Below, piece after piece: positions 1 through 50,690 of a stretch of 64,000 bases of DNA (its first letter is position 1; each line of letters begins with the position of its first letter). The notes under the pieces are model-generated. The model had not been told where the DNA came from and searched no databases. It saw nothing but the letters and a program-made list of their open reading frames with translations. A program made the translations under genes and the position numbers. The DNA comes from a virus, in the IMG/VR virus record IMGVR_UViG_3300032323_001070, positions 1-64,000 of that record; one strand, 5' to 3'.

Positions 1-123
1 AGAGAGCAGTTTGAACGCCGAGTTTTAGAAACAGATGACTATTATAATGGCATTATAAACGTCAGAGTAGGCGGATCAAACATACTTAGACAGCGTCTAG
101 AAGAACATAAAAAGGCAAAATAA
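1..123 (+). CDS. C-terminal fragment of a probable GIY-YIG (Seg-like) endonuclease-family protein
   Basis: Frame 1 reads REQFERRVLETDDYYNGIINVRVGGSNILRQRLEEHKKAK* (TAA 121-123). The E..F...VLE...YYN tail resembles Seg-like GIY-YIG proteins of T4-like phages. The N-terminus is outside the window. Confidence 0.55.
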   Translation, partial: REQFERRVLETDDYYNGIINVRVGGSNILRQRLEEHKKAK

Positions 124-134
124 CAGCGGTTTTT

Positions 135-597
135 GGCTAGCGCAGGCCTAACTTCATGCGCTCTAAACCTGGTCAATCGTGGTCACAGGGACGGAATTCC
201 ATGCCGCAATGGTACTCAACTACTACCCATTTATGGATGAAGATCGCTTAAAACCTGCGATTTAGTTGTTTGAAAAGGATAAGCAAAGGTAAAAAGAAGG
301 GAGAAAAACCCTACGTTTGCTAGTATGTTAGCGTATATTAGTAAACCACCGTCATATGAAGACGCAACTCGAGGTACCGGATGACCGCCTCTGTAATGTT
401 GCAACGCTAAGTGGTATTGTTCAACTCGGATAATATTTTTTTCGCCCGGCAACGGGTGAAGTGTGGCTGAACAATCTGGATAATGCTTAAATTGCGCTTC
501 GCGCAAAAAACATGTTAGCACATCTAGCTAAACATCAAAGAAGGAAAAATAGCGTTGAGCGTAAGCGAAAACGCAAATGAGCGTTAGCTCATTTTTT
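135..597 (+). ncRNA. Candidate large structured noncoding RNA (no family recognised)
   Basis: ~500-nt gene-free gap with many hand-identified helices: 139-144/157-162, 217-222/263-268, 242-247/257-262, 280-285/484-489, 315-327/334-346, 364-368/398-402, 416-423/468-475, 441-448/453-460 (GCAA tetraloop). The loop 328-334 is complementary to 404-410. Confidence 0.6.
575..597 (+). terminator. Intrinsic terminator-like hairpin at the 3' end of the structured region
   Basis: aaatgagc-gtta-gctcattt followed by T-tract. Confidence 0.6.
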
Positions 598-601
598 AAA
601 A

Positions 602-607
602 TAAATA
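602..607 (+). promoter_or_regulatory. T4-type late promoter core TAAATA
   Basis: aaaaTAAATA 25 nt upstream of the ATG at 633; the same motif precedes most structural genes here. Confidence 0.55.
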
Positions 608-632
608 AACAATAATTCTTTGGAATCATCAC

Positions 633-2399
633 ATGCGATTAGAACAATTAAAGACCAGCTACCTTACTGAGGGTTTAGATTATGAACAGATACGTTCAGT
701 TCGACTATGGGAAAGCACAGGTCTAAAACTAAAAGAAGCAGCATTAACAGCAGATCAAATTCAGAACTTATTTGCTGAGATCGAAAAAGGAGCTACTGCC
801 GCAGGTGGCAATAGAACCATGCTAGGCAAGGGCAAAGATGCTGTCACAGCAGTAAACAAAGCGTGGGAAGATCTCAAAACAAAGATTCAAGATTCAGGTC
901 CTGTTAAAGGATTTGATCAAAAGGTCAGCGATGCACTCAGTAAAATTGGCTTGGGCACAGCTGATCCTCAATTCAACGGCGAAGTTAACAAATGGGTACA
1001 GAAGTATCGTGACTTTGCTAAAAAACATCCCATAGCACAAGGTGCTATCTATGCCACACTGATCGCTCTAGCTGGTATTTCAGGAGCAGGCGTTGGCGGC
1101 GCTGCTGCACTAGGTCTACTAAAGATGGCAGACAAACTATTACAAGGTGAACGTTTCAGTTCTGCTGCCTACTCTGGTGCGAAAACAGGCGCAATGGCCT
1201 ACGGTGCTAGCAAGATTGGCGACATGATCAAAGGCAAGCCCGAAGGTGGCGTAGGCGGCGGTGAAATGTCGCCAGATATGCAACAGGGTCTAGCTTCTGA
1301 TCAAGCATTCCAAGACCGTCTTCTTAATAAGTTTCCGCCTGATAAAGGATTTACTGTTGCCTCAGACGGCAAAGGTCTACAGGTATTAGATTCTGCAGGA
1401 AATAAAGTTTGGCAAGGTGATATTCCATTAAAAACCATGGATCCAAAGACCTTTGCCGATTTGACCAATGCTGGAAAAATGGCAACTCCTGGTATCAGCA
1501 GCGGATCAATTTCCAGTGATGCTATGGCGGGCGTTTCGGGTGATGACGCAGCATTCGATGCCATGGCCAAGGCACGTGATCTAAGAAATCAACTAGGCGG
1601 CGCAGCTGACGTTGGTGGCGCAGCAGGTGAAGTGGTCAAAGGGTCTGGTCAAGAAATGTTTAAGAGTTTGGCCACAGATCCCGCAGCCAATCCTACACTC
1701 AAAGCGTTAGCAGATAAGATCGCCAGTGGATCTTTCACTGACAAAGACTACGATGTACTAAGAGGTCAACTGGACAATGCTATTAGAATGGCAGACAACG
1801 CTGACGTTCCGGGATCATTAAAGATCGGTTCAGAAGTGTTCACTGGTGCAGACAAGGCTCGTATTGCCAAAGCTCACTATAACGTTGTTGATGCTATGAT
1901 GAATAAAGCAGTGCAGATACAGAATTCCAGCATTGAAAGAACTGGTCGCGCTCTCAGTGAAGGTCAGGTCTACATGATTTTCAATCGTGTCTGTGCTAGA
2001 AATGATCAACTGCTGTCTGAAGGAAAGCTAATTGAAGGTCCATTAGATGCGATCAAAGGTATGGCAGGCAAGGCTGCAGGAGCAGTAGCTGGCAAGGCCA
2101 AACAGATTGGCGCTAATCTTACAACTAAAGTTACCGCAGACAAATTAAATTCTGCTTGGCAAAAGGCAGGATCGCCAACAGACTCTGAACAACTAAAAGC
2201 ATTCTTAGGCAAACAGGGCGTAAGTCCAGAAGTCATTGACGGTGTTTACAAATCTTTGAAGATTCCAGCAGCAGCCGCAGCCGGCGCTGTGGATATCGAA
2301 CAGGTCAAAAAAATGATTACCGCTTTGCCCACTGATAGAAAAGCAAGACTGCTAAAATACTTAACCAAACAAGCTGGTGCACAACCTGTGGCAGCGTAA
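633..2399 (+). CDS. Hypothetical virion (probable head-internal) protein with a hydrophobic Gly/Ala segment
   Basis: 588-aa ORF; possible prohead-protease sites (YLTE-G, LSE-G, LIE-G); hydrophobic stretch AIYATLIALAGISGAGVGGAAALGLL. Confidence 0.55.
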   Translation: MRLEQLKTSYLTEGLDYEQIRSVRLWESTGLKLKEAALTADQIQNLFAEIEKGATAAGGNRTMLGKGKDAVTAVNKAWEDLKTKIQDSGPVKGFDQKVSDALSKIGLGTADPQFNGEVNKWVQKYRDFAKKHPIAQGAIYATLIALAGISGAGVGGAAALGLLKMADKLLQGERFSSAAYSGAKTGAMAYGASKIGDMIKGKPEGGVGGGEMSPDMQQGLASDQAFQDRLLNKFPPDKGFTVASDGKGLQVLDSAGNKVWQGDIPLKTMDPKTFADLTNAGKMATPGISSGSISSDAMAGVSGDDAAFDAMAKARDLRNQLGGAADVGGAAGEVVKGSGQEMFKSLATDPAANPTLKALADKIASGSFTDKDYDVLRGQLDNAIRMADNADVPGSLKIGSEVFTGADKARIAKAHYNVVDAMMNKAVQIQNSSIERTGRALSEGQVYMIFNRVCARNDQLLSEGKLIEGPLDAIKGMAGKAAGAVAGKAKQIGANLTTKVTADKLNSAWQKAGSPTDSEQLKAFLGKQGVSPEVIDGVYKSLKIPAAAAAGAVDIEQVKKMITALPTDRKARLLKYLTKQAGAQPVAA

Positions 2400-2408
2400 G
2401 GAACCAAT

Positions 2409-3611
2409 ATGAAAATCAATGAAATATTAATCGAAAGCCAACTACAAGAAGGTCCTTTGATGAATAAGATAGGATCAGCTGTGGGCAAGGGTGTAGGCAC
2501 ACTGGCTAAAGGTGTAGGAGCAGTCGCAGGTGGAGTTGCAGGATTAGGTCGTGCAATCAAGAAAGGATATCAAGCAGGTAAAGCCACAGTTGGTGGCGCA
2601 GGTGACGATACAGCAGCAGCACCTGCAAGCGGTGGTGGCCAAGGTGCAGCCCCAGCAGGTGGTGGCGGTGCAGCAGCATCAGCAGGTGGTGGCGATCAAG
2701 GCGGTGCAGCAGGAGCACAAGGAGCACCCGGCGCACCTGGCGCAGCAGGAGCGGCTGGTAAAGATGGAGCACCTGGCGCACAAGGAGCACCTGGCGCAGC
2801 AGGTAAAGATGGAGCAGCTGGAAAAGCTGGAGCACCCGGAGCAGCTGGCGCGGCAGGTAAAGCTGGAGCAGCAGGAAAATCAGGTGCAGCAGGAGATGCA
2901 GGGGCAGCAGGCAAAGATGGAGCCGCAGGTGCAGCTGGAGATGCCGGCGCAGCAGGAACGGCTGGTAAAGATGGAGCCGCAGGTGCAGCTGGAGACGCCG
3001 GCGCAACAGGAGCAGCCCCAGCAGCTAAAGCTAATCCGGCTGCAAGCGGACAGAGAATTGAACCTACATTAGACGAACCAGCAGCAGCAAATCCAAAAGC
3101 AGACTCTGCATATGCACAGGCACAAAAAGCAATTGCTGGTCTTGCACCCGAACAGAAAAAAGAAATCGTAACTATGCTTCAGTCTGATCCTAAAGTTAAG
3201 GCAGCTATGGCTAAACCCGCAGCCAAGAAACCTGCTGCTAAGAAACCAGGAGCAGCACCAGCAGGCGGCGCAATGGGTGCAATGGTTCAACAACTAGGCG
3301 GAGATAAACCAGCAAACACAATGGCAAATGCTCCAGTGAGTAAGACTAATACTGCTAAACCAGGCAACCCTAACGCAGCGCCAGCAGCAGAACCAGCAGC
3401 AGCGCCAGCGGCAGCACCCGCAGCAGCGCCAGCGGCAGGCGAACAACCTGCACCAGCACCTAAAAAGAGAGCAGCACCTAAAAAGAAAGCAGCACCAAGT
3501 CAAGCAGAAATTGATGCCGATCGCGAACGTCTAATGGGACCAACTAGCGACAGCATTATTAGAAAAGGAAATCTTGTTGCAGAAAGTTTTAGTTTTTTTA
3601 GGAAAAAATAA
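2409..3611 (+). CDS. Collagen-like, Ala/Pro/Lys-rich protein with capsid-targeting-like N-terminus
   Basis: 400 aa; SD AAGGA; N-terminus MKINEILIE-S; 35 contiguous Gly-X-Y triplets. Confidence 0.75.
   Translation: MKINEILIESQLQEGPLMNKIGSAVGKGVGTLAKGVGAVAGGVAGLGRAIKKGYQAGKATVGGAGDDTAAAPASGGGQGAAPAGGGGAAASAGGGDQGGAAGAQGAPGAPGAAGAAGKDGAPGAQGAPGAAGKDGAAGKAGAPGAAGAAGKAGAAGKSGAAGDAGAAGKDGAAGAAGDAGAAGTAGKDGAAGAAGDAGATGAAPAAKANPAASGQRIEPTLDEPAAANPKADSAYAQAQKAIAGLAPEQKKEIVTMLQSDPKVKAAMAKPAAKKPAAKKPGAAPAGGAMGAMVQQLGGDKPANTMANAPVSKTNTAKPGNPNAAPAAEPAAAPAAAPAAAPAAGEQPAPAPKKRAAPKKKAAPSQAEIDADRERLMGPTSDSIIRKGNLVAESFSFFRKK
2703..3017 (+). repeat. 9-nt-period coding repeat encoding (Gly-X-Y)35
   Basis: GAA GAQ GAP GAP GAA GAA GKD ... 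GDA GAT GAA, uninterrupted. Confidence 0.9.
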
Positions 3612-3612
3612 A

Positions 3613-3954
3613 ATGAGATTTCAAGAAATAGTTGAAGCCGGTTTAGTAGGAAAATTAGGAAACGCTGCAGGGGCAGGACTAGGAGCGGCCGTTAAAGGCA
3701 TCGGTGGTGTAGTCAAGGCTGCAACAAAGGCAGGTCAACAATTTGCTCAAGGTGCTGACAACTGGAAAGGAACTGGAATGTTCGGTGGTCCAAACAAAGG
3801 TGGTGGTGATCAACCAACATCGGACACAACTAATCCTGCGTTAAAAGATGTAGATACTAATGACTTAAAACAAATATTAGCAGCAGCATTACAAGGTCAA
3901 AAATTAGACGGCAAACTTCTTCAGGTTGCTCAGAGTTTAGAACAGAAACTTTAA
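3613..3954 (+). CDS. Small Gly-rich hypothetical (probable head-internal) protein
   Basis: Start better placed at ATG 3613 (MRFQEIVE-A), just after the upstream stop, than at TTG 3574. Confidence 0.65.
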   Translation: MRFQEIVEAGLVGKLGNAAGAGLGAAVKGIGGVVKAATKAGQQFAQGADNWKGTGMFGGPNKGGGDQPTSDTTNPALKDVDTNDLKQILAAALQGQKLDGKLLQVAQSLEQKL

Positions 3955-5096: not shown

Positions 5097-8000
5097 ATGG
5101 CAACTCCTGTTTCAATTGATATTCCCGGTATTGGTTTAATCGAAGCCAAAAACGCTGCCACGGAAGAAACCTTACGAGAAATTCTAAAGGTCATGCAGGG
5201 TGTTCAAAAGAATACTGCGGGCGGTAGAAGAGCAGGTGGTTCTGCCGGTCGTGCCGGTGGTCCCGGAGCTGATCCAGGCGGAACGACGAATAAAGCCGCC
5301 GATACTGCTGCAAAAGGCCTAGGAGCATTTGCAAAAGGCCTAGGCGGCGTGAGCATGAAGTTTTTAGAAATAGGAGCCGCTTCTGCAAATCTAATTAAGA
5401 CCCTAGGCGGAGTCGGTGACAGTTTAGCAGGTGCAGCACAAGTATTTCAAGCAATACCGAAAATAGGCGGCCCTCTAGCTGCGGTATTCGGGGCAGTTGC
5501 TCATGCTGCTGAAACCTCTGCTAAAGCATATCAAAGCGCAGCAGCAGCCGGCGCATCTTTTGGCGGTAGCATGAATAGTTTCATTAAAACTGCCAGCCAA
5601 GCTGGCATGACTATGGAACAATTTGGTGCACTAGTCAAAAGCAACGGTTCAGGAATGTTAGGTTTTGGCGGAACCGTTGAAGAAGGTGCTAAACGATTTG
5701 GAGCAGTTTCGAAAGCATTGAGATCGTCTAGTAGTAGTCTATATGCTCTAGGATATTCAACTCAAGAAATAAATCAAGGTTTGGCTAGTTATGGTGATCT
5801 ATTGAGGAAACAAGGTCTCCAGGGAACTAAAACTAATGCAGAACTAGCAGCTGGCGCAAAAAATTACATGAAAGAATTAGATGCGTTGGCAAAAATCAGC
5901 GGAGAAGATCGAGCTACCAAAGAAGCACAGATGAAAGCATTAGCTACCGATGTTCAGGTGCAGATGTCAATGGCAGGAAAAAGTGCAGAAACTAGAGAAA
6001 GTTTTATGAAACTTGTAGGAGGTTTTGGTCCTACTCTAGGAAATTTTGTTAAAGATTTTGTAGCGAACGGCACAGTGACTTCTGAAGCGAATGCAAAAAT
6101 AGCAGCGGCTTTGGGTGGTCCAACTATGGACGAACTTCAAAAACTAAGAGCAAAATTAAATGCTAATCAACAATTAACTGCTGAGGAACAAGATAGATTA
6201 AGAGCTATTATTAAAAAATCAGCAGACGAAGGAGCAAAAAAATTAGGTACATCAATTGCTGCCAGTGGCGGAGCACTTGATGATATGGGTAAGGCTTTTA
6301 TTGAAGGTTCTCAGATACAGATAGGGGCAGTGAAAAAAAGCGCAGAGGAACAAGCGAAAGCAGCTAAAGGTCAAGACGGATTAAATCAAAAAGTTGAAGA
6401 ATCAAAAGCTAGATTGGCCGAAATGTCGAATGCTTTTAACCAGATATTATTAAACAGCGGTCTACTAGACACCATGATGAAAGCATTTGGATGGTTCGCT
6501 GATTTTGTTATGACTGTGGTTGTTCCGATATTTCAGGTATTTGGTTCAATAATCACCGCAGCCGTTGATATTCTAGACGTTGTGTTTATTCCGGCATTGG
6601 CAGGGGTAGCGGCTGGCTTATTAACTTACGGAGCAGCACTAGCGGCCAGTTCTGCAGCAAAAGCATATAATACCTTAACTACAATTTCAGAATCAGGTGC
6701 CAGAACCGGATTACTAACAGGATTAGCGGCACAAATTAAAGCTACTTGGGGAGCAGCAGCGGCAGCATTAGGGATAAGTGCTCCTATGCTCGCACTGGTA
6801 GTTGGAGTTACCGCAGTAGTAGCATTGTTTGTTGGATTGTATAGAAGCGGTTGGACATTTAGTTCAGCACTTGAAGCTATCGGTGATAATTTAAAAAGAT
6901 TTGGTTTGAATATCATGGAGCTTATAGATGATATTAAATCAAAATTTTCTTTTATGGGCGATGCTGAAAGAGATCAAAGAAAATTAGAAAGAGACAAAGT
7001 ACGAGCTGAATTAGATGCTAGAGAAGCTGCTAGAGATACTAAGCGAGAAGACGTTAAAAGAGATCGTGGCATAGACGATGATAGGAAAAAAAGAGATAAA
7101 TCATACTTTGATACTAGGGATGAACGTCAAAATGCAGCCGATGCAAAAGCAGAAGCTGCTGCTACTGCCAATGCACCAGGTGGCAAAGATTACAATGCAA
7201 ATGCTATAGACACCCTGAAACAATTTAAAGGTGGATTATCTCAGCCTGGCGCACAGACACAGACTCCGGGTGGCAGCACGGTCCCTGGTGCAGCACCTCC
7301 TGCTGTCAAGCAAGATGTTAAACAGAATATGGAGTTGATTAAAGCAGCTCTTGTTAAACAAGGTATCACAGATCCAAAAATGATTGCCGCAACCATGGGC
7401 AACGTTATGAAGGAAACAGGTGGTAAGAATATTTCTGAAAATCTAAATTACGGCACAACTAAAAATGATAGGATCCGAGATATTTTTGGTTCAAGAGCCG
7501 CAGGAAAGACAGATGCAGAATTAGATGCAATTAAAAAAGATCCGAAACAAATGGGCGAAATGATGTACGGATCAGGTACCAAGATGGGTCAACAGATGGG
7601 TAATACAGAGCCCGGTGACGGTTGGAAATATCGCGGTCGCGGATTTATACAACTTACCGGCAAGTCAAATTATGCCGCAGCATCTAAAGCAATTTTTGGT
7701 GACGATAGATTAGTTAAAAATCCAGATTTATTAGATAATCCACAGGTAGCAGCTGAAGTCAGTGCTTGGTATATGAAGAAAGGTCAGGCAGGTATGGCTA
7801 AGAAACTAGGCCTTGACACTGCGAACCTAACACAAGATCAAGCCAATCTGTTAGCAACAAGTCAAATTGCTGGTGGAGACATCCGTAAGAAAGGTAAAAT
7901 TGGTCAAGAGATTTCTGCCAAAGTAGACAAGTATTCTGCTCAAATGGCCGGACTCGCAGGTGCTCCGGTGACTGCGATGCCAGCAAGTTCTACAGTAAAC

Positions 8001-20395: not shown

Positions 20396-23300
20396 ATGGC
20401 TGAGTTTAAACTAGGTAGAATTAAATTTGTATGGAAAGGTGCATGGGCAGCGAGTACAACATTCGTCAAAGATGACGTCGTAAGATATGGCGGTAAGTCA
20501 TATGTTTGCGTAGAGGGACACACCTCAGGAATCGCCGCTGGCGGCTTCGAAACTGCTCTAACAGCAGGAAGATGGAGCTTAATGACCGACGGTCAAGCAT
20601 GGAATAGTAATTGGGCCACTGGCACATACTACAAAGTCAATGACGTTGTGAGATATGGCGGACGATCATATATTGCTAACACATCGCACACATCTGCTGC
20701 TACATCAACACTGGGTCTTGAAAACGACCAATCTAAATGGGACATTTTCAATGACGGTATTGCATACGCTGGTACTTGGTCATTCCCAACACGATTTAAA
20801 GTAAACGATGTTGTGGCCTACGGTGGACAGCTTTACATTTGTACTACACATCATACCAGTTCTTCAGTATTCGCAACTGGGAATTTCGCAGTGTTTGCAA
20901 CTGGTTTACAATTTGAAGGCATATATGACAACGCAACAAGCTATCAGCCAGGCGATGTTGTTGTCTACGGCGCAAACAGCTATGTAGCGATCCAAACAAC
21001 TGTAGGTAATTTACCAACCAATCCTAGTTTTTGGTCAGCAGTAACACAGGGTGTACAATATAGATCAACTTACAGCGGTGCAACAGCCTATAGAAAAGGC
21101 GATATTGTAGCCTATGGTGGATATACCTATGCAGCCAAACAAGACACCACTGGCAATGCTCCTACCGACGCTGCAAATTGGGATCTATTAAACAAAGGTT
21201 ATACATTAATCGGTGCTTACAGCGGCGCCACAGCATACAAGCCAGGTGAATTAGTCACTTATGGTGGTAATGTCTACGCTGCAAAAACAGACACTACAGG
21301 AAATTTACCAACCAGCACAGCACAATGGGATGTATTCACCAAAGGCCTTAACTGGTTAGGAACATACAGTGCAGGTACAGCATATGCCCCAGGCGATGTT
21401 GTAAAATACGGAGCAAGAATATTCGTTAATATCCAAGCTGGCACAGGAAATCTTCCAACTAACGTCAGCTTCTGGAACGTGCTTAACGACGGTGTTCGCT
21501 CTGCAGGTACTTACGCAGACGCCACAGAATATCTAGTAGGCGATATCGTACGCTATGGCGGTAGAAGTTATATCTGTATTCTAGGCCATACATCAAACAA
21601 TGCAACTAACATAGAACCTCCAAATGCCACATACTGGCAGCTACTAGCAGCAGGTATGAATTGGAGAGGCAACTACAGTGCTGTTACAGAATATGAATTA
21701 GATGATGTTGTTAACTATGCAGGTAGTTCTTGGATCAGTATCGACAACGATAACACAGGAAATCAACCAGATGCTTCACCTTTAAGATGGGCATTGGTAG
21801 CACAGACTGGTAACTTATCACCAATCCTAACTACCACAGGTGATACTTTCCGTTACGGTGCATCAGCAGTTGAAAGATTGCCGGTTGGACAAGAAGGACA
21901 AATTCTTGTTGTAAACAACAATTTACCTCGTTGGGAAGATAACAACGAAACTAGAAACGTTTATTATGTTACACCAGAAGGCAGCAACTCTAATGATGGT
22001 TTATCATATAACAGAGCATTTGCTTCAGTTAGATATGCCTGCACACAGGTAAGAGGTGCTAACTTTACCGGCTCTATCAGCGGCACTACTTTAACTGTAA
22101 CACTGGTAACATTAGGAACATTATCAGTAGGACAGGTAGTCTACGGTACAGGTATAGCACCTGTGAGAATTGCTTCTTTTGCTAGTGGTTCTGGTTTGAC
22201 AGGAACATACAATTTAGATTCTGCAAGAACATTTTCAAGCGGCTCACTAAGATCAGCAAGACCTGCTACAATCTATATCAAGGCAGGAACATACACCGAA
22301 ACATTGCCTATCGTTGTACCAGAAAGCGTACATATCATTGGTGACGGACAGAGGAATACCACAGTCCAACCAGCCAGCGGTGTTAGTGCTGACGGTTCAA
22401 CTTTAAATACTCGTTCAACAATGTTCTTGATGAGTGATGCCAGCATGTTATCAGGTATATGCATGATAGGCATGACTGGTTTTGCGATCGGTGCAAGCCC
22501 AAGCAATATCACAACATCAACTGTTGGTGGAGTATTTGTGGCATTTAACCCTGACAGTCCAATATTAACTAAGAGCCCTTACATTACAGATTGTTCAGCT
22601 TTCTCATCAGGCGGCACTGGTGCTGTAGTTGATGGTTCATTACACTCAACTGGAAATAAATCAATGCTGTTCCATGCATTTACAAACATCAACGACAACG
22701 GTGTAGGTTTCTGGGTATCAAATGCAGGTAGAGCAGAAATTGTTTCTTGCTTTACATACTACTGCGCATTTGGTTATGCAGCATCAGAAGGCGGTCAGAT
22801 CCGTGCGTTGAATGGTAACTGCTCATACGGGGAGTATGGTGCAGCCAGCGTGGGTTTTGATCCTTCAGAAACCCCAGTAACTGCGGCGTTGTATGGTCAA
22901 GAACTTAACTATCTAATTGAAAATGGCGAGTTCGTTAGCAGCGAGATTATCACTGGACAAAGCTCAGGTGCAACAGCACGAGTATTAATCAATCAACCTT
23001 CTGCTAATAAACTGTACTTTAAACAAGTTACTGGGTCGTTTACATCTGGTGAAGTTATTACCGGCGGCAGCGGAGCAAGAGCTACGGTTAATGCGGGCAT
23101 TGGAGTAGCTGGACAGAAAGGATTTATTTTAGTAGTTGACGGACTAACAGAGGAACCAAGAGCAGGTGGATCTATCACTATCGCAGGTGATGCAGTGTCA
23201 TACGTTATCCAATCTGTGTCTGAGTATACTGCTGTTCCTGCAACTTATAAACCAGCAGGTTTCGCGATCATTGTGTTAACTAACGAAAAAGGAACTAGTT

Positions 23301-23779
23301 CGGCAGAAGACGCAGCAACTACTATCAGATACAAATATAGTAAAGTACGCTTAACAGGACACGATTTCTTAAGTATCGGAACCGGAGGCATAGCTACAAC
23401 TAATCATCCAAACGATCCGATCCAAGCTCCGTCGCAGGCTGACGAGGTTATTGAATTGTTCCCCGGACGTGTATTCTATGTATCAACAGACCAAGACGGT
23501 AACTTCCGTGTTGGCGAATATTTCCGAGTTGACCAAGCAACAGGTACTGCTACTTTGAATGCTAATGCGTTTAACTTGGCAGGTTTGAGTTCGTTACGAT
23601 TGGGTTCGATCGGTGCTCAATTAGGAGCAACGATTAACGAATTCTCAACAGATGAAACATTAAGCGGAGCGTCTAACACCGCAGTTCCGACAGAATTTGC
23701 AGTTAAGACATATGTAGACAACAAGAGTAGTGAAACATACTTGCTGAATCTTGCAACGTCAGTGGCATTCGGCGCATAA
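20396..23779 (+). CDS. Large virion adhesin: 9 CBM5/12-like repeats plus a pectin-lyase-like beta-helix
   Basis: Nine ~47-aa G.(W/Y)...T.Y..(G/N)D(V/I)V.YGG..Y repeats, then VYYVTPEGSNSNDG...AFAS...TIYIKAGTYTE.LPI.VP..V.IIGDG. Confidence 0.75.
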   Translation: MAEFKLGRIKFVWKGAWAASTTFVKDDVVRYGGKSYVCVEGHTSGIAAGGFETALTAGRWSLMTDGQAWNSNWATGTYYKVNDVVRYGGRSYIANTSHTSAATSTLGLENDQSKWDIFNDGIAYAGTWSFPTRFKVNDVVAYGGQLYICTTHHTSSSVFATGNFAVFATGLQFEGIYDNATSYQPGDVVVYGANSYVAIQTTVGNLPTNPSFWSAVTQGVQYRSTYSGATAYRKGDIVAYGGYTYAAKQDTTGNAPTDAANWDLLNKGYTLIGAYSGATAYKPGELVTYGGNVYAAKTDTTGNLPTSTAQWDVFTKGLNWLGTYSAGTAYAPGDVVKYGARIFVNIQAGTGNLPTNVSFWNVLNDGVRSAGTYADATEYLVGDIVRYGGRSYICILGHTSNNATNIEPPNATYWQLLAAGMNWRGNYSAVTEYELDDVVNYAGSSWISIDNDNTGNQPDASPLRWALVAQTGNLSPILTTTGDTFRYGASAVERLPVGQEGQILVVNNNLPRWEDNNETRNVYYVTPEGSNSNDGLSYNRAFASVRYACTQVRGANFTGSISGTTLTVTLVTLGTLSVGQVVYGTGIAPVRIASFASGSGLTGTYNLDSARTFSSGSLRSARPATIYIKAGTYTETLPIVVPESVHIIGDGQRNTTVQPASGVSADGSTLNTRSTMFLMSDASMLSGICMIGMTGFAIGASPSNITTSTVGGVFVAFNPDSPILTKSPYITDCSAFSSGGTGAVVDGSLHSTGNKSMLFHAFTNINDNGVGFWVSNAGRAEIVSCFTYYCAFGYAASEGGQIRALNGNCSYGEYGAASVGFDPSETPVTAALYGQELNYLIENGEFVSSEIITGQSSGATARVLINQPSANKLYFKQVTGSFTSGEVITGGSGARATVNAGIGVAGQKGFILVVDGLTEEPRAGGSITIAGDAVSYVIQSVSEYTAVPATYKPAGFAIIVLTNEKGTSSAEDAATTIRYKYSKVRLTGHDFLSIGTGGIATTNHPNDPIQAPSQADEVIELFPGRVFYVSTDQDGNFRVGEYFRVDQATGTATLNANAFNLAGLSSLRLGSIGAQLGATINEFSTDETLSGASNTAVPTEFAVKTYVDNKSSETYLLNLATSVAFGA

Positions 23780-23804: not shown

Positions 23805-26800
23805 ATGGCAAAAGCACTCGCATTTAATTACACATTCAATCCAGCAGCCGATTCGGTGACGATTGATGGCAACATATCGATCAAACGTGTGTTGCTGATA
23901 ACCAATGTTACAGATAACATTGTTATCCAAAATTTTGCAGATCCTGCAAAGAAAATTTTAAGTCGCAGCTATGATCAGGATGCCGACGAAACTACATTCG
24001 TATTACAATACGACTGTGCTTCGATGAGCGCCAGCGACAACTTACAAATTTTCTACGAAACTGATACGATCAGATTCCAACCAGACGAAACATTTATTGA
24101 CCCTGTGTCAAAAATGCGTGTATCTCAGCCAAATACGTTGATTGATACAGACTTTGAATATGGTCTACAAGCTACTAAATGGGAAACTTTAGAGCGTTTA
24201 AATCAAGTGCCAGCTTTCCACTCTGTAACAGGCGATACTCCTCTAACAAACATTTTAGATGTTACAGTCAGTGGTACTAACATTGTATCTGTAACAACTT
24301 CTAGTCCCCATGGTTTAACTGTAGGATTTCCGATTGACGTGCGAGGCGTTGACAGTCCTACAGCCGAAGGTACATTTATCGTTAAAAGAACTGGCGATAC
24401 TACATTTACCTACGAAGCAAGAGCAGTTCAAGCAGGTACAGCAACAGCCCCAGTGAGTATTTTAACTTCATATGTGAATATTACTCCTGGTCGATTCTAT
24501 GTAGGTTCTCAAATTCCTCTAGATGACAGTGTTTCAAATACCACAGGACCGATCGTAACTAACGCAGCTAGCCCAAGTACGCTAACTGTTAAGACCAACT
24601 ATACTCACGGTATGGCTGTAAGTTCTACTTACTATCTAGTCAATACCCTAAGTAACTCAAATACAAGCTTCAGTGCTCTCAGCGTTAGTGCTGGCGGTGA
24701 CGTTGAAGATCGTTCAGCGATCAGCTTATCGACTGGTAACTTCAGCATGTACGAACCATTCCACGATGGTACTAGACGTTTTGATATTTCAGACTCTGCT
24801 GTTGACACTATCAACGAAACACTGACAATTCCAAATCACGGTATGCTCACAGGCGATATGATCGCATATGTAGGCGTTAGTTCTGGCGGCGCATCACCTC
24901 AGGTAGCTTCAGTGGTTGGCGGTAGTTATCCGATTTCAGCAGGTAACTTGCCTGCATGGGCAGCAGGCACAGGTGCAGACGGCAAAATGCTATATGTGGT
25001 AAAAATCAACAACAACACCATTAGACTAGCTACCAACCCAAGAGATGCATATAATCAAACCAACTTAATTGGATTCACTGGAACAGGTTCTGGCACATTA
25101 ACATTTGCACACTTTATACGTGGAACCGATGTTGAAGAATATATCAGCACTATCACAGCCGCATCAGGTAGTTCTGAATTAGTGGTTACACTAGTATCTG
25201 GGTTTACCAATGACATGTTAAAGATTGTTCCAGAACAACAGTTTACAATCGCTGAATCAGCAGTATCAGGATTGAACGGTGTTTATTATGTTAAAACCTC
25301 AGGTTGGGATAAAGATGCTTCGACATTTACTATAATTGGCCCAACAAATTCCTCGGCTGCGCTAGCAGCTCAGGGCGCATCACAGACCTATACCATGGTC
25401 GACACTGGCGGAAACAACACAACATCGTTTGATAGATACAATTTTTTATTAAACACAGGCATGAGAATCATCGTACACAATGGTCCAACGATAAACCACA
25501 TGCGAGTATCGATGCACGATTGGAAATCTACCACAGCTAAGTTCTTTACTAGAGAAGCTATCCAGTCTGACCAGATCTTCATTAAAAATCACGGTTTAAC
25601 TGTAGGACAACCGCTGATGTTGATTCTAGGTGGTAATACATTGTCCGGCGGCACGGCCACAGACACTACAGTTTATTTCACGAATGTGATCAACAACGAC
25701 ACAATCCAGATAATGACCACAGAAACCGGCTCAGCAGGTGCAACTGGTCCTTATTCTCCAACTGTCGGTGTTACCGCAGCAACATTTGGTACACTAACTG
25801 CTGCTACATCTTTAGCGGGCGGTATTTATTCGTTACACCCAGGATTCCAAATCGCTAACTTCACTGCGCAAGGTACATCGGGTGGTAACGGTACTGGCCG
25901 TGACAGAGCTATTGGTAAGTTTACCACTGGCCCAGGATACTTATACGAAGGTGTTCCTATAGTTATCAAGACTGCCGCTGGCGCTACACAACCAGCACCG
26001 CTCACAGCCACAGTTGATACATATACCGCATATCAAAAATACTATGTAAGAACTGTTCTTTCTGCAGATAACAGATTAGAATTTTCATTGGGGTTACAAG
26101 AAAGTGCTGGTCCACTGATTGATTTTTCCGGCGCAACCACTGTGGGCTCAGGTTTCTTTGGATTTAGAATCGATGAAAACATATACGCGAACTCGTTCTA
26201 TCTAAAAAATCACGGCGGTCTTACTACAACGCAGACAGTCGGAACCACAGGTAGTCAGGGTACATATCCGGCAGGTATCGGATTCCCAGGACCATTGTTT
26301 GATAGAATTGTTGATCCGGGTACAGGCTACGATGGATTACCAAGAGTTAGAACTACACTAACCCAGGCGACTCCTATCGCTGGTCTAACAACTGCAACAG
26401 TTTATAACATGGTGCCAATCACCAACGATATCTGGAAGGTTATGGCTTGGTCAGATACAGCTCTACCAACTGGACAACCTACAGTACAATTTACCAACAT
26501 AGCCAGCAGAACATCGACTGTGGTTTTTGCTAACTCTGCTGTGGTTAATTTGAATGCTAACAGAATTGTTATTCCGTCACAGAGACTAGGCCAACTTACA
26601 GAAAATTCTGTTGTTCGATACAGAGCACAAGGTAACTTAAACATTCCTAGTTCATACACAGGATGGCCTGGCTTGATCGACAACAATCAATATATCGTAA
26701 GAAACGTTGTATCTAGTGCGTTCTTTGAAGTAGGTTTATTTACAACTCAGTCTTATGCAGCCAACGCAACAACTATCGTTCTAAACGATGCTACAGGACT

Positions 26801-29800
26801 TGCCACTGGCGACACGCTGAGAATCACCACTTTCGGAACTACTAACCCTGTTAGAGGTGTTAATGGTCCAATCCAATGGAATGACACCAGTGGTTCATGG
26901 GGTACTAAGACTGTTGAAAACAACGAACTGTTGTTGATCACTAACTTAGTTGGTGCAACACTAACAGTTACACGTGGACACAGAAATACCACTGCGCTTC
27001 CAATCTTAGCCAACACCTATATACAGAAAGAATTTGCTTCTTTCCAATTGTTTGCCACAGAGCAGACATTGCCAAGAGCATTGAACAGCGTAGTAGGTAC
27101 TACATCAACCAACTTATACCTAGCTACTGCACACGGTCTAAGAACAGGCGATACATTGTACTGGCAGTCAGGGGCATCAGGTAACCCAGCATATGTAACT
27201 AACTTCCCTTACTATGCAGTGGTCGCAGATGCCAACAACTTCGGTGTTGCTGATACACTAACACTGTCTCAAGCTGCTGTGTTACACGACGTAAACGCAA
27301 CCACTGCCACTAGCTGGACACAATTTTACAGTTCGATTCCATTAACAGGCCTAGGTTCAAGTCCTTTGGGCAGTCATGTGCTTGAAGACACTTCTGCAAC
27401 TGGAACTATCGACGGTGGCTATACCGCAACAGCAGTATCAGCAAATACTCTACAGTTCCAAACTGCATCACAGATTCCTAATAGAACTTTCACATTCTAT
27501 CCTGAAGATTCGTTGGATCTATTAACAGGCGAATTCTTTATTAGAAATCACGGATTTACCACAGGAACCAAAGTTACCTACTCAAGAAATGCACTGACAT
27601 TTGCGATAGGTGATGGATCAGGCAATCCTGTAGCTGGATATAACAGATTAGTCAATAACACAGAATATTTTGTTATTAGAACTAGTTTAAATAGCTTCAA
27701 ATTAGCAACTTCTAGAGCTAACGCATTTGCTGGTACAGCTATTCTGCGTTATTCAAGTGCTGGTACTAGCGGTGGACACACTCTGTCAACAGCACAGGTC
27801 AGTGGTGAAAGTTTACAAGCTGGTCTAGCAACTATTATTGCACGTGATATCGTGTTTAACGGTTCTGACAATAACATAGTTGTTGCAGGTGCAGATAGAA
27901 TTATCGCAACTGGACATGGTTTTAGATCAGGCGACCGAGTAATTTATCAAGTATGGGGTGGTGGCAGACAGGTTAACGGTCTAGTTAACGGACGTCAGTA
28001 CTTTATTTCTAACTCTGTGTTTACTGGTGCACCATCAGGTGGTGCTGCCGCAGGTCAAACTGCTAACCAGTTCTCGCTACACAACACATGGGTGGGTGCT
28101 TATACTAACACTGACCGTGCTGACATTTTAGGTGTTGGTACTGGTCGAGTTCACCAGTTCAAAGTTACTAACCCAACAATGTTCGGAACAACATTCAGAG
28201 GCGAATGGTCCACAGCTGACAGCTACAGAGCGGGTGATGTTGTACTGTTTAGAAACAGCTATTACATGTCCTTAACTGGTTCAGACTTTGCCACAGGTAC
28301 TTTGGTTTTCAACTCAGGAAGACAGCCAGCAGCAGAAAGCGGAGCGATCGAAACAAACTGGATGCCTTGCCCAGTGTTACCAGCATACGGCACAACATTC
28401 TTGACACAGTATAGAGGTGGTTCAAGAGTACGTCTAAGCAACACTGTAACTAGAGTAACTAGATTCTTTGATGCAGGTTCTGCTTCGCGTGTTATTGTAG
28501 CTGACGATAGAATTAGCTTTGCACAGGCTCACGGTTTATTCAGTGGTCAAGCAGTGATCTACAGAATGGATGCTAGGGGCGGATTCCACGGAGGTACTGG
28601 TGGTACTGCATCACCTTATAGAGGAACAGGCGGCTGGGCTCCACAGACAGCTATCGGCGGCCTAACTGTTAATAGAATCTATTATGTAAACTTCTTAAGC
28701 ACTACTGATATCACATTACATACAAGTCCTCCACTAGCTGTTCGCGGTGGATCTGGCGACTCTGGTAGCTTTGACTTTGCAGTTGAATTGTCTGCTGTAG
28801 GCCAAGGCGAATTCCATAGATTTGAAGTAGTTAACAACGTTGTCTATGACCTGGAAGTATTGGCAGTTACTAACAATGCTGAAATGATTGTTACAGACCC
28901 ATATCCATCACGTTCGATCACATTCAATCCGCAAGAAACCAACGTTCACGTAAGTGGTCTAGGTATGCAGGTTGTTGATATTGTTAACAACGTGATCTAT
29001 ATTCCAAATCACGGATTAGACACTGGTGTTAAGGTTTACTACTCTGCAGGCGTTATTGGTTCAGGTACAGCGATAGGCGGTCTAACAGACGGTACTGCTT
29101 ATTTCATAATTAACTTAACTCCTGATCATATTAGATTAGCTTCTAACATCGTTAACGCTTATACAGGAGTAGAGATTGACCTTACTAACACAGGTACTGG
29201 TATTCTGCACTATCTAATCGCAGCTACAACATCTGGTTCTTCATGGATCAGATACAACGGTACAGGTGATATCAACACTGATACAACTGGTTTGATCACA
29301 AACTCTAGCCCATATTCATCACAGGTTGTTGGTAATATCAGAGACGGTGTATTGATTGGTCTGCCAATGATTGGGGTAACAGAAGTATATCCAAGACCAG
29401 ATTGTACAAACGTACACAGACCATTCGATGGCGGTGTTGAAATCAACGCAAGTCGTACACCTGGTGTAAGTATTGTTCGTCAAACACGTAAGTACTTCCG
29501 TTATCAATCTGGTAAGGGTCTACAGTACTCAACTGGTATTAACTTCAGTCCAAGCATTGAAGTCAGCAGAATCGTACACGACGGTACAGCATGGGCAACA
29601 GTAACTACACGTAAGCCACATAAACTAGTGGCCGGCAATAAGATTTTTGTTCGTGATGTTGGATTTACCACAGAGTACGAAGCTGACAAGTGTGAAAGAG
29701 ATCTAGCTTATATCATTGAAGGCGGTGCATATGACGTTGCTCTAGGCACAAACTATAATGCGATATTCTTAGGAATCGCTGAAGTTAACTCTTTAGAAAT

Positions 29801-48582: not shown

Positions 48583-50667
48583 ATGGACGCAAGAAATAAC
48601 ATTTCAACTGATTTATTCTACAAAATTCGTAGCCGCTTCTCTGGCCTTAAATTAGGGGGAGAAGACGGTGCTATTACTATCAATCCAGAAGACGCTAGAT
48701 TCTTCGACTTTGATTATATGGAGGGAGAAACTCCGTTAGGACATGTCAGCATTAGTTTAGCTGAACCCAATTCTATGAAAGTTTATTTCAGTACAGGAAT
48801 CACTGAATCAATGGAAGAGTCTCAAAAAGACAATTGGTACGGTTTCCTTAGAGAACTGAGACAGTTTGCTAAAAAGCGTCTAATGGCGTTCGATACCCGA
48901 GACATTACTAAAGACAATCTTGATAAAAGAGATTATCAATTTTTAAGTCAAAATGCTCAACCTAAACCAGAAACGTCAGCGAATATTATACAAAAACCAG
49001 TCGGAGAAAGTGTTATGAGTGAAAGCGCAATGTACGGTACAAAGACCGTCAGCTATCAAAAATTAATGGATACACGTTTGATTATTAAGCATAGTCAAGC
49101 ACTAGTAGACGATACACAGCCAGGTGCAAGAACTCGTCATATCTCTGCATTATTTGTAGAAAACCAAGACGGTGAAAGATTTAAATATCCATTCATCCAT
49201 TTAGCAGGTGCTCGTGCTATGCAACGACATGTGGCCAATGGCGGATTACCGTATGATGATCTCGGTAAGAGTATTATCACTATGAGCGAAGAAATCGCTC
49301 AACTAAAAAGTTTTTCAAACTATGTTGTTCGTAACGATCTAATGAACTCAGATACTAACGGCATCGTTGAAAGAAGCTCACAGGCATTAAACAGTTTACG
49401 TGAACAAATCAAAGCATTGGCAAAACAAGGTCATTATGAGGCTTACAAAGAAAGTTTCCAGGCACGTGAACAGGTAGAAATTCCACAAGACGTAGTAGAA
49501 GATTTTAAAGAAAAATTCACTGTAAGAAATTTTAAAGAAGATATTAAATCTGTTTTCCCTGTACTGTACAGATTAATGCAAGAAGAAAATACCTTAGGCT
49601 ATGACGACATAGTCGCAATGACTTCACATCAGGACGAAGAGCAATTTAATGACGATGTAGAAGTTTCTGAACAAATAGATGATTTTGAAAAATTTGAATC
49701 ATGGGTAATGGGACTAGGTGAAGAAAGTGCTATTGCCAGCCAAGATCAAGAAGAACAAGCAGAGGCTATCAAACAATTACAGGAATTAGTCGGCGAACAT
49801 TTCCCAGCAGGTGTAGACGGCAGCAATGCTATTGAAAGCCTTAAAGGTCTTATTGACGATCCAGAATTGTTTAAACAAATCAAAGATCAAGCCAAAGAAG
49901 ATCCAGACAGTTGTGTTCGACCACTAGTAAAACAATGGCTAGAAGATAATGCTCCAGACGTAGTAAGCAAGTTAGATTTTGGAGATATGACAGAGCCAGG
50001 TCAAGAAGAACCAGAAGCAGGTGCAGAAGAAGTTCCTGCAGATCAAGCTGCTGCAGAAGTTCCTGCAGAAGAACCAGTAACACAAGGTGACGACAACGAA
50101 GAAGGCAGAGAAGGCCGAGGTAGAATGAATGTTAAAGAACTTGCTGAATTTATTACCTCGTTCTATGACAAAGATTCAGGCACATTCCCTAAAGGACCAG
50201 AAGGCGTTTGCACTATGGTAGGCAAGAAGTTTGGTGAACAGGCAGAACAAGTTGCTCGTAAATTTGTAGAAAGAATGGCACCACAACAAACATCTGAAAA
50301 TAATCCAGAATTAGCAGAATTGGCTCGTATCGGAGAACTAGCAGGTGTTAGCGAAGGCCCGATGTGGGACAAAGTGAAAGCATTTGGAAAGGCAGCAGGT
50401 GACAAAGTCATGCGCCACGCAGACATAACTGGATATACAAAGGCCAAACAAAATTTTGAAAAATGGATCGATTCTCATCCAGAACTAGAACCAGAAAAAG
50501 AAAATCTTCTTTCTAAATTTGATGCAGAAGCAGAAGAAGATCCACATACTCCGTGGAACTGGGGTAAGTATGCACTAGAAAAATGGAAGGAAGAGAAAAA
50601 GTCCGGAGCAGTTAATCAAGAATCTAATGACGAATTATCAAGAGTAAAAGCGTTAGCAGGCATGTAA
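48583..50667 (+). CDS. Large acidic hypothetical (probable head-associated) protein
   Basis: Start at ATG 48583, 5 nt after TAAATA; twin EL.R...LAG motifs near the C-terminus. Confidence 0.7.
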   Translation: MDARNNISTDLFYKIRSRFSGLKLGGEDGAITINPEDARFFDFDYMEGETPLGHVSISLAEPNSMKVYFSTGITESMEESQKDNWYGFLRELRQFAKKRLMAFDTRDITKDNLDKRDYQFLSQNAQPKPETSANIIQKPVGESVMSESAMYGTKTVSYQKLMDTRLIIKHSQALVDDTQPGARTRHISALFVENQDGERFKYPFIHLAGARAMQRHVANGGLPYDDLGKSIITMSEEIAQLKSFSNYVVRNDLMNSDTNGIVERSSQALNSLREQIKALAKQGHYEAYKESFQAREQVEIPQDVVEDFKEKFTVRNFKEDIKSVFPVLYRLMQEENTLGYDDIVAMTSHQDEEQFNDDVEVSEQIDDFEKFESWVMGLGEESAIASQDQEEQAEAIKQLQELVGEHFPAGVDGSNAIESLKGLIDDPELFKQIKDQAKEDPDSCVRPLVKQWLEDNAPDVVSKLDFGDMTEPGQEEPEAGAEEVPADQAAAEVPAEEPVTQGDDNEEGREGRGRMNVKELAEFITSFYDKDSGTFPKGPEGVCTMVGKKFGEQAEQVARKFVERMAPQQTSENNPELAELARIGELAGVSEGPMWDKVKAFGKAAGDKVMRHADITGYTKAKQNFEKWIDSHPELEPEKENLLSKFDAEAEEDPHTPWNWGKYALEKWKEEKKSGAVNQESNDELSRVKALAGM

Positions 50668-50690
50668 AAATTAATTACATATTAAAGATT

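What the first reader, a model, noticed from the sequence alone, without database searches (positions are those of the whole stretch)
124..600. Large, pseudoknotted candidate ncRNA directly downstream of a probable GIY-YIG-type nuclease gene
Seen: the longest gene-free stretch in a tightly packed window is almost fully tiled by complementary segments. A three-way junction closed by 217-222/263-268 has arms 227-236 and 242-262. A long-range helix 280-285/484-489 encloses a 13-bp hairpin (315-346) whose loop TTAGCGT pairs perfectly with ACGCTAA (404-410), forming a pseudoknot. It also encloses nested 364-402 and 416-475 domains, a GCAA tetraloop and a duplicated GGATAAT (428, 478). The region ends in a terminator-like hairpin. 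I could not match it to tRNA, tmRNA, RNase P or intron cores. Inference: a functional structured RNA co-transcribed with the upstream nuclease-like ORF (no promoter or terminator seen between them). It could be an RNA partner or guide of that protein, a ribozyme, or a replication/packaging RNA.
Basis: partly seen in the sequence, partly recalled or inferred. Interest (0 to 1): 0.85.

Follow-up and report, generated by a model that had tools for sequence, protein, structure and literature searches.

The report
Extended Polynucleobacter-1 twin-box phage RNA
The gene-free stretch behind a small nuclease gene of this uncultured freshwater T4-like phage encodes a real, roughly 460-base, doubly knotted non-coding RNA. 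Its first third is the catalogued but unexplained Polynucleobacter-1 motif; the rest is uncatalogued and nothing shows that it guides the nuclease.

Summary
Window 135-271 is a full-length match to Rfam RF01718 (Polynucleobacter-1, 102 bits; cut-off 37).

Homologues in about 188 IMG/VR phage contigs show that the conserved, covarying RNA runs on to about 597. It contains:
- a second pseudoknot, 351-355/381-385;
- several further helices;
- a tandem-GA/GNRA hairpin and a terminator hairpin.

Helix 416-423/468-475 exists only in the window's subclade.

The duplicated GGATAAT is the oddest feature. The two 7-mers are identical in 149 of 150 distinct homologues although 13 variants exist, and I found no partner for them.

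The RNA is not tied to the GIY-YIG protein:
- Close protein homologues in Melnitz, P-SSM2 and phiM19 have no RNA.
- Ten loci have genes inserted between the two.
- Six loci carry an unrelated PD-(D/E)XK nuclease in the same slot.
- Four loci have neither nuclease.

Some relatives keep only the 3' two-thirds, joined to a different 5' part. The function is unknown.

This scan had already reached much the same reading on other genomes.

The parts
1..123 (+). 3' end (last 40 codons) of a small SegE-type GIY-YIG nuclease gene, cut off by the start of the record
   Evidence: The C-terminus matches the 144-aa L007 protein (PF19835, 124.7 bits). The GIY, YIG, R, E and N residues are conserved in 79 distinct homologues.
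135..271 (+). 5' domain, equal to the Polynucleobacter-1 RNA motif (Rfam RF01718). Hairpins: 140-144/157-161, 169-175/180-188, 199-202/209-212. Three-way junction: 217-222/263-268 with arms 227-228/235-236 and 242-247/257-262.
   Evidence: 102.1 bits, model positions 1-141; 96-100% paired, with compensatory changes.
272..314 (+). Purine-rich linker with the conserved words UUUGAA, GGC and AAAAGA, plus small hairpin 298-301/309-312
   Evidence: The hairpin is 69% paired in the tool alignment; by eye it covaries but its length varies.
315..346 (+). Hairpin 315-326/335-346, whose loop 328-334 is the 5' strand of pseudoknot 1
   Evidence: 12 of 12 pairs change on both sides.
328..410 (+). Pseudoknot 1: 328-334 (UUAGCGU) pairs with 404-410 (ACGCUAA)
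   Evidence: 99.4% paired, 7 of 7 pairs compensatory; for example AUUGUAU/AUACAAU, CUGAUAU/AUAUCAG.
349..403 (+). Highly conserved core: helices 364-368/398-402 and 371-374/388-391, and pseudoknot 2 (351-355 with 381-385). Conserved words: GCCGU, AAGAC, GGUACCGG, ACCGCC.
   Evidence: (96-97% paired; 353/383, 354/382 and 355/381 compensatory).
423..434 (+). Twin box 1 (A-ACUC-GGAUAAU)
439..462 (+). Hairpin 440-447/454-461. Its 5' base 439-444 can alternatively pair with 357-362; columns 358, 443 and 458 covary three ways.
473..484 (+). Twin box 2 (A-AUCU-GGAUAAU); the 7-mer is identical to that of box 1
   Evidence: 149 of 150 distinct homologues identical, 13 variants, spacing 47-63 nt.
494..504 (+). 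Small G+C hairpin GCGC-UUC-GCGC. Present in most homologues with other stems, absent in some.
551..575 (+). Irregular hairpin: stem 552-556/570-574 around UGAGCG-UA-AGCGAAA (tandem G.A pairs, two G-C pairs, GNRA loop)
   Evidence: stem of 4 bp or more in 35 of 36 sequences, 25 distinct stem sequences.
577..597 (+). Terminator hairpin 577-582/587-592 followed by six U; the likely 3' end of the RNA
   Evidence: 97.2% paired, 6 of 7 pairs compensatory. Many homologues have only 2-3 U.

Best explanation
Window 135 to about 597 (+) encodes one long, stably folded non-coding RNA of a family carried by uncultured freshwater T4-like and jumbo phages.

Its 5' third is the Polynucleobacter-1 motif (RF01718). 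The uncatalogued 3' two-thirds hold a doubly pseudoknotted, highly conserved core, two identical single-stranded 'twin boxes' on either side of a hairpin, an irregular GNRA hairpin and a terminator hairpin.

It is most likely made as the last part of the + strand recombination-gene transcript (gp46/SbcC-like gene, small ORF, small nuclease gene, RNA, terminator). It most likely acts as a free-standing folded RNA, not as a guide of the nuclease.

Shown: the fold, its conservation, its extent and its independence from the GIY-YIG protein.

Inferred:
- Transcription by read-through from the upstream genes.
- That the twin boxes are two equivalent docking words for one shared partner, either a nucleic acid or a two-fold symmetric factor.
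- That the competing helices 357-362/439-444 and 439-444/457-462 let the 3' domain switch shape.

The biological role is not known.
For: - Rfam match of 102 bits over the whole model.
- Homology to the window runs from 125 to about 490-620 in about 80 of the first 119 pattern hits. No conserved ORF lies in the gap, and the next gene differs in family and strand.
- On 50 sequences, 88.5% of cells are paired against 36-42% when the partners are slid. The covariation score is 0.385 against about 0.07, and 64 of 87 pairs change on both sides.
- The tail helices covary.
- Twin boxes are identical in 149 of 150 distinct homologues, with 13 variants and all eight combinations of three variable sites.
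- Columns 358, 443 and 458 covary three ways.
- Independence from the nuclease. The complete Melnitz genome has the protein (125 bits) but no RNA even at E up to 1. P-SSM2 and phiM19 have no gap behind the gene. L040 and L346 have the RNA without the gene. Ten loci have genes inserted in between. Six loci carry a PF24608 PD-(D/E)XK nuclease instead.
- One complete 354,680-bp phage genome has exactly one copy of the RNA.
- Contigs of four freshwater and river metatranscriptome studies cover 1 to about 480 and bridge the gene/RNA junction.
Against: - Transcription is not demonstrated. The RNA-library data are contigs from relatives, and DNA carry-over cannot be excluded.
- No partner for the twin boxes was found, either in the RNA and its flanks or enriched in the 80-kb record.
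- The three-way covariation could reflect a base triple rather than a switch.
- The near-constant adjacency to a nuclease gene (166 of 170 loci) remains unexplained if the two are functionally unrelated.
- The terminator's U-run is short in many homologues.
Confidence: 0.7

Rival explanations
1. The RNA is the partner or guide of the upstream small nuclease, forming a nuclease-RNA system analogous to IscB or TnpB with their omega RNAs. The catalytic-domain-only GIY-YIG protein would gain target recognition from the RNA, perhaps through the twin boxes.
For: - Adjacent and co-oriented in 150 of 170 loci.
- The protein is almost only the 123-residue catalytic domain, with no DNA-binding domain, and its catalytic residues are intact.
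- A second, unrelated small nuclease sits in the same place in 6 loci.
- Two identical words could address both strands of an inverted-repeat target.
Against: - A 66%-identical protein in the complete Melnitz genome has no RNA. Homologues in P-SSM2 and phiM19 are followed directly by genes.
- The RNA occurs without the protein (L040, L346). One or two genes are inserted between the two in 10 loci.
- The variable words take only 13 forms within NNAURAN, so they are not free-form guides.
- Non-homologous replacement of the protein argues against a specific RNA-protein fit.
Confidence: 0.1
2. The nuclease genes are selfish or exchangeable neighbours. Small nuclease cassettes (GIY-YIG or PD-(D/E)XK) home to, or are swapped at, the conserved junction between gp46 and the RNA gene, as T4 SegB sits in the tRNA gene cluster. 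The RNA would be the conserved landing pad and has its own, unrelated function. Alternatively, the slot holds the phage's structure-specific resolvase, replaced non-orthologously. This reading can hold together with the best explanation.
For: - Two unrelated nuclease families sit in one slot.
- There are loci with neither nuclease and loci with extra genes in the slot.
- At least 12 upstream and 13 downstream gene families flank the pair.
- Contigs in RNA libraries carry a GIY gene that continues into other sequence at position 123 (table 7).
Against: - The GIY protein lacks the DNA-binding domain of the known Seg homing enzymes.
- It is strongly conserved and near-universal in T4-like cyanophages (487 phage records). 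That fits a domesticated enzyme better than a decaying selfish gene.
- No cleavage site is known.
Confidence: 0.25
3. The locus is a replication origin. The folded transcript would be a pre-primer that forms a persistent RNA-DNA hybrid, like ColE1 RNA II or the T4 oriF/oriG R-loops.
For: - The locus sits at the end of the recombination and replication gene block.
- Iteron-like tandem repeats lie directly upstream of the RNA in four variant loci: L332 (38 bp x3.1), L294, L368 and L292.
- In the complete genome G002 the RNA lies about 6 kb after a strand switch.
Against: - There is no GC-skew extremum at the RNA; the skew follows gene direction.
- The main type, including this window, has no iterons.
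- Compensatory maintenance of two pseudoknots and of the 3' hairpins points to a released, folded RNA.
- Nothing here maps a DNA start site.
Confidence: 0.1
4. It is a cis-acting regulatory RNA: a riboswitch-like 3' or 5' untranslated region that controls the neighbouring genes through the alternative helices.
For: - Alternative pairing of 439-444 with 357-362 or 457-462, with three-way covariation.
- A terminator at the 3' end, followed in many homologues by a T4-late-promoter-like TATAAATA.
Against: - Downstream genes belong to at least 13 families and lie on the opposite strand in about 40% of loci.
- The RNA is far larger than any known expression platform.
- It persists when the upstream gene changes.
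Confidence: 0.08
5. It is a ribozyme. The two identical boxes would be two cleavage or ligation sites recognised by one catalytic core.
For: - Its size, its double pseudoknot and many invariant unpaired nucleotides.
- Two identical sites flank a segment of about 50 nt.
Against: - No Rfam ribozyme family matches, even at E up to 10.
- No internal guide complementary to the boxes was found.
- The contigs show no joints or coincident ends.
Confidence: 0.05

Closest known systems
Polynucleobacter-1 RNA motif (Rfam RF01718; Weinberg et al. 2010, Genome Biol 11:R31, PMC2864571)
   Same: Window 135-271 matches the whole 141-position model at 102 bits. The gene context is the same: downstream of a small gene related to a P-SSM2 protein. 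The freshwater origin is the same, and the function is unknown in both.
   Different: - The catalogued motif is only the 5' third of the conserved RNA.
- The 3' two-thirds (two pseudoknots, twin boxes, tail hairpins) are in no family, and no paper I could search describes them.
- The 3' part also occurs with other 5' parts that Rfam does not recognise.
- The motif is now seen on many phage contigs. In 2010 it had been found in no purified phage.
Large 'ornate' bacterial and phage RNAs of unknown function (GOLLD, ROOL, HEARO, OLE; named from my own knowledge, not tested)
   Same: Several hundred nucleotides long, with many helices and pseudoknots; carried by phages or mobile DNA; found by comparative genomics; no known role.
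   Different: No sequence or model match to any of them. This RNA is smaller than GOLLD and ROOL. Twin boxes are not described for those RNAs.
Omega and HEARO-type nuclease guide RNAs (IscB, TnpB)
   Same: A structured RNA encoded next to a small nuclease gene.
   Different: There is no hypervariable guide at either end, and no obligate co-occurrence. The nuclease family is common without the RNA and can be replaced by an unrelated one.
T4 SegB homing endonuclease in the tRNA gene cluster (from my own knowledge, not checked against a paper)
   Same: A GIY-YIG (Seg-type) gene sits directly beside structured RNA genes of a T4-like phage.
   Different: The protein here is 143 aa and lacks the Seg DNA-binding half. 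Homing has not been tested.

Membership tests
Polynucleobacter-1 RNA (RF01718) | Covariance-model score at or above the curated gathering score of 37 bits | tested here: met
   102.1 bits, E 8e-23.
Polynucleobacter-1 RNA (RF01718) | All model helices present over positions 1-141 and supported by covariation | tested here: met
   Model positions 1-141 aligned. Helices 1-7 are 96-100% paired with changes on both sides.
Polynucleobacter-1 RNA (RF01718) | Lies downstream of the GOS11034 / P-SSM2-related small gene | tested here: met
   The upstream gene is a SegE-type GIY-YIG gene. tblastn finds its homologue in P-SSM2 (H19). The context is as described in PMC2864571.
Nuclease guide RNA (omega-RNA-like) | Obligate co-occurrence of RNA and nuclease | tested here: not met
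   protein without RNA; RNA without it, or with another nuclease.
Nuclease guide RNA (omega-RNA-like) | A hypervariable guide segment at one end of a conserved scaffold | tested here: not met
   The ends are conserved or are structural hairpins. The only concerted variable words take 13 forms of NNAURAN.
tmRNA (one-piece or permuted) | tRNA-like domain and tag reading frame | tested here: not met
   ARAGORN finds none. No Rfam tmRNA family matches at E up to 10. The L346 phage carries a separate permuted tmRNA beside this RNA.
Group I / group II intron | Match to the intron core, and a host gene split by the element | tested here: not met
   No Rfam match. The flanking genes are complete and vary between loci.
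Hammerhead ribozyme | CUGAUGA...GAAA core between three stems that are not paired to each other | tested here: not met
   The tail word UGAUGAGCG..AGCGAAA resembles the core. However, its flanks pair with each other, UGA lies inside that stem, and the word is absent from the AAU-type homologues. No Rfam match.
Programmed translational bypass (T4 gene 60 type) | Matched take-off and landing codons about 50 nt apart, within a conserved reading frame | tested here: not met
   The boxes read as NNA plus UAA or UGA and are 50 nt apart in the window. But no conserved frame enters them (2-97 codons), and the spacing is 47-63 nt in any phase.
Type III toxin-antitoxin RNA (ToxI-like) | Tandem full-length identical repeats next to an endoribonuclease gene | tested here: not met
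   Only about 11 nt are repeated, and Tandem Repeats Finder finds no array in the window region. The neighbour is a GIY-YIG or PD-(D/E)XK DNA-nuclease family.
Primer/origin RNA (ColE1 RNA II-like) | RNA-DNA hybrid and a DNA start at the 3' end of the transcript | not testable with these tools
   Indirect evidence only: iterons in four variant loci and no skew extremum.

The most novel reading that the evidence does not exclude
The uncatalogued 3' domain (double-pseudoknot core plus twin boxes) is the working part of a new class of phage RNA. It would present two identical, co-evolving recognition words and so hold or sense two copies, or both strands, of one nucleic-acid target for the phage's recombination and nuclease machinery. 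The exchangeable small nuclease encoded in front of it would be the effector. That would make it a bivalent RNA-directed nuclease or recombination system, unlike any known guide RNA.
Probability: 0.1. Interest if true: 0.85.

Novelty: new variant of a known kind. Interest (0 to 1): 0.55.

Why it matters
- An orphan Rfam motif turns out to be only the front third of one of the larger and more intricate phage-encoded RNAs, carried by hundreds of uncultured freshwater T4-like and jumbo phages.
- The full extent, the two pseudoknots and the modular 3' domain give a concrete target for structure determination and for updating Rfam.
- The twin boxes, two words kept identical through repeated changes, are a rare kind of covariation. 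They imply an unseen shared partner, and finding it would probably reveal the function.
- The alternation of two unrelated small nucleases in front of the RNA bears on how nuclease cassettes move, or are replaced, in T4-like genomes.

Tried and rejected
- Partner of the twin boxes inside the RNA or its flanks (-500 to +1000). The only complement is the GU-rich stretch 265-271, which is already used in helix 217-222/263-268.
- Loop 203-208 as the partner: no covariation.
- Complement of the boxes elsewhere in the phage. ATTATCC occurs 9 times against 8.6 expected. ATTATCCRRRT with one mismatch is no more frequent than its control. No inverted-repeat target was found.
- Coding or bypass reading of the boxes: rejected.
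- DNA similarity to 50,697 deposited phage genomes: none.
- Scan of cellular genomes with the 5' pattern: all 120 listed hits were chance matches by nhmmer.
- RNA-library contigs show no cover beyond about 600. That region is not conserved among relatives, so the absence carries no weight.
- GC skew of a complete relative genome: no signal at the locus.
- A sigma-70-like promoter 90 nt upstream of the RNA in L040 is a single consensus match, fewer than expected by chance.
- The phrog_447 label 'NAD synthetase' for the upstream protein conflicts with the Pfam GIY-YIG assignment and the conserved catalytic residues, so I disregarded it.

Full report
**What is there.** The window is the first 64 kb of an 80,762-bp IMG/VR virus record. 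The gene upstream of the finding is therefore cut: only its last 40 codons (1-123) are present. No + strand ORF of 90 aa or more lies between 123 and 633.

A scan of the whole window against Rfam 15 gives one hit. Positions 135-271 (+) match RF01718, Polynucleobacter-1 RNA, at 102.1 bits (gathering score 37) over model positions 1-141. ARAGORN finds no tRNA or tmRNA. At E up to 10, no other family gives more than noise in 1-900.

Weinberg et al. 2010 (PMC2864571, Additional file 1) describe the motif from freshwater and estuary samples. They place it downstream of a small gene family with possible homology to a P-SSM2 gene, and they found it in no purified phage. No other paper in the searchable library mentions it.

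**How far the RNA really goes.** I scanned IMG/VR for a conserved word of the motif. This gave 119 loci, of which 99 carry the RNA by an nhmmer profile. A blastn search with window 1-700 matched over window positions 125 to about 490-620 at 67-84% identity, far beyond the Rfam model. Column conservation stays at the level of the Rfam part up to about 495 and resumes at 544-590. The next ORF of 90 aa or more always begins 343 nt or more after the start of the RNA. It belongs to at least 13 families and lies on the opposite strand in about 40% of loci. No conserved reading frame crosses the region.

The region folds better than dinucleotide shuffles: z = -2.1 for 124-600 and -3.2 for 272-600.

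**Structure.** I counted pairs on a tool alignment of 50 sequences, each less than 88% identical to the others (A1). My model of 87 pairs gives these figures:

| measure | model | partners slid by 1-3 columns |
|---|---|---|
| cells paired | 88.5% | 36-42% |
| covariation score | 0.385 | 0.06-0.08 |

Sixty-four of the 87 pairs change on both sides.

Examples are UUAGCGU/ACGCUAA, AUUGUAU/AUACAAU and CUGAUAU/AUAUCAG.
- Hairpin 315-346, helices 364-368/398-402 and 371-374/388-391, and hairpin 440-447/454-461 are confirmed.
Helix 416-423/468-475 holds only in the window's subclade.
- Downstream lie a small G+C hairpin (494-504) and an irregular hairpin, 552-556/570-574, around UGAGCG-NN-AGCGAAA. 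The stem of the irregular hairpin is at least 4 bp in 35 of 36 sequences, with 25 different stem sequences.
- Last comes the terminator hairpin 577-582/587-592. It is 97.2% paired, with 6 of 7 pairs compensatory, and six U follow it in the window.
- Many homologues then carry TATAAATA-like words in front of the next gene.

The RNA is therefore about 460 nt long, from 135 to about 597.

**Twin boxes and a three-way covariation.** The duplicated GGATAAT (428 and 478) is not a chance repeat. An APC-corrected mutual-information scan puts five column pairs among the strongest signals: 423/473, 428/478, 429/479, 432/482 and 434/484. In each, the two columns carry identical letters, not complementary ones.

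Over both IMG/VR scans, 149 of 150 distinct regions have the same 7-mer in both boxes. Thirteen variants exist, and all eight combinations of (A/G)GAU(A/G)A(U/A) occur, so the concerted changes happened repeatedly. The fixed flanks ACUC and AUCU stay different, which argues against simple sequence homogenisation. The spacing is 47-63 nt.

I found no complementary partner:
- none in the RNA or 500-1000 nt around it, apart from a GU-rich stretch already used in a helix;
- none enriched in the record.

The boxes read as a sense codon plus UAA or UGA, and they lie 50 nt apart in the window, which recalls T4 gene 60 bypassing. But no conserved frame leads into them and the spacing varies in any phase, so I reject a coding explanation.

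A second signal of the same kind is this. Columns 358 and 458 carry identical letters (A/A 48, U/U 13, G/G 7), and both are complementary to column 443. So 439-444 can pair either with 457-462, the base of the hairpin, or with 357-362 in the conserved core; the six pairs of this second helix are 78-99% formed. That indicates a helix exchange or a base triple.

**Relation to the nuclease.** The full-length upstream protein of the closest relative (L007, 144 aa) shares its C-terminus with the window's fragment. It is a SegE-type GIY-YIG domain (PF19835, 124.7 bits, covering residues 3-123) with no further domain. The GIY, YIG, Arg, Glu and Asn residues are conserved in 79 distinct homologues.

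A second scan, using a word from the 3' core, added 89 RNA loci. The 170 loci with enough upstream sequence divide as follows:

| upstream of the RNA | loci |
|---|---|
| GIY-YIG gene ending 0-80 nt upstream | 150 |
| GIY-YIG gene with one or two other genes inserted | 10 |
| about 170-aa PD-(D/E)XK nuclease instead (PF24608, 94-103 bits; phrog_244) | 6 |
| neither | 4 |

The usual order is gp46/SbcC-like gene, small ORF, small nuclease gene, RNA.

Conversely, the protein occurs without the RNA:
- The complete genome of Methylophilales phage Melnitz has a 66%-identical protein but no RNA, even at E up to 1.
- In P-SSM2 and Sinorhizobium phage phiM19 the homologous gene is followed directly by coding genes.
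- The protein family is found in 487 deposited phage genomes, none of which has DNA similar to the RNA.

A complete 354,680-bp relative has exactly one RNA and one SegE gene, side by side. The RNA is therefore not an obligate partner of this protein. The adjacency is better read as position in an operon, or as a slot for exchangeable nuclease cassettes.

**Modularity.** About a third of the loci from the second scan match only the 3' two-thirds of my profile. Seven that I tested have no RF01718 hit at the gathering score. L332 has none even at E up to 5, yet it keeps the GGUACCGG...ACCGCC core, the hairpin and identical twin boxes. The uncatalogued 3' domain thus occurs with other 5' parts.

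In four of these variant loci, iteron-like tandem repeats lie directly upstream of the RNA. In L332 they are 38 bp x3.1 with repeated TAGGCAC words. The window and the main type have none.

**Expression.** Contigs from four RNA libraries (river and freshwater metatranscriptomes, four separate studies) lie on 1 to about 480, and several bridge the gene/RNA junction. These are contigs from relatives, and DNA carry-over cannot be excluded, so this is only weak support for co-transcription.

**Rivals.** A replication-origin or primer role cannot be tested here. In the complete relative the RNA lies about 6 kb after a strand switch, but the GC skew simply follows gene direction. The guide-RNA, cis-regulator and ribozyme readings are each contradicted or unsupported, as set out in the Rival explanations section.

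**Earlier notes of this scan.** One search shows that other agents, working on other genomes, reached the same core reading: an extended Polynucleobacter-1 RNA of about 460 nt, doubly knotted, with twin boxes, and not a guide. Here I re-derived that reading independently. What this report adds:
- the PD-(D/E)XK replacement in the nuclease slot;
- the 3'-domain-only variants and their iterons;
- the 358/443/458 covariation;
- the eight-combination test on the twin boxes.

**Verdict.** This is a real, large, structured phage RNA. Part of it is known (RF01718); most of it is uncatalogued. The function is unknown, and the nuclease-partner idea is unlikely.

Noticed in passing
L332:9860-9995 (also L294, L368, L292): Iteron-like tandem repeats lie between the upstream nuclease gene and the variant form of the RNA. 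In L332 they are 38 bp x3.1 and rich in TAGGCAC words. They occur only in loci whose RNA lacks a recognisable Polynucleobacter-1 5' domain.
   Followed up: partly
L311:3963-4484, L332:9348-9854, L303:3893-4423 (-): A PD-(D/E)XK nuclease of about 170 aa (PF24608; phrog_244 'RusA-like resolvase') occupies the slot that the GIY-YIG gene holds elsewhere, between gp46 plus a small ORF and the RNA.
   Followed up: partly
window 2409-3611: A 400-aa Ala/Gly/Pro-rich protein with collagen triple-helix repeats (PF01391) and tail-fibre PHROG matches. It follows a 588-aa protein (633-2399) that has no family match. The three + strand ORFs 633-3954 (588, 400 and 126 aa) lie between the RNA and the conserved minus-strand genes that directly follow the RNA in many relatives.
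   Followed up: partly
window 50667-51165: A second long stretch (about 500 nt) without an ORF of 90 aa or more. It has no Rfam match at the gathering score. I did not examine it further.
   Followed up: no
window 23805-31901: A single ORF of 2698 aa, preceded by one of 1127 aa (20396-23779). These are unusually large phage proteins, consistent with a jumbo phage (CheckV rates the 80-kb record 22% complete).
   Followed up: no
L346:3911-4304 and 5169-5240: A relative that carries the RNA also encodes a permuted (two-piece) tmRNA (RF04321, 92.5 bits) and a tRNA, as reported for Melnitz-like phages (PMC9004378).
   Followed up: no
window 551-575 and homologues (alignment A2): The conserved tail word UGAGCG-NN-AGCGAAA superficially resembles a hammerhead core. 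It folds instead as tandem G.A pairs, two G-C pairs and a GNRA loop on a covarying stem.
   Followed up: yes
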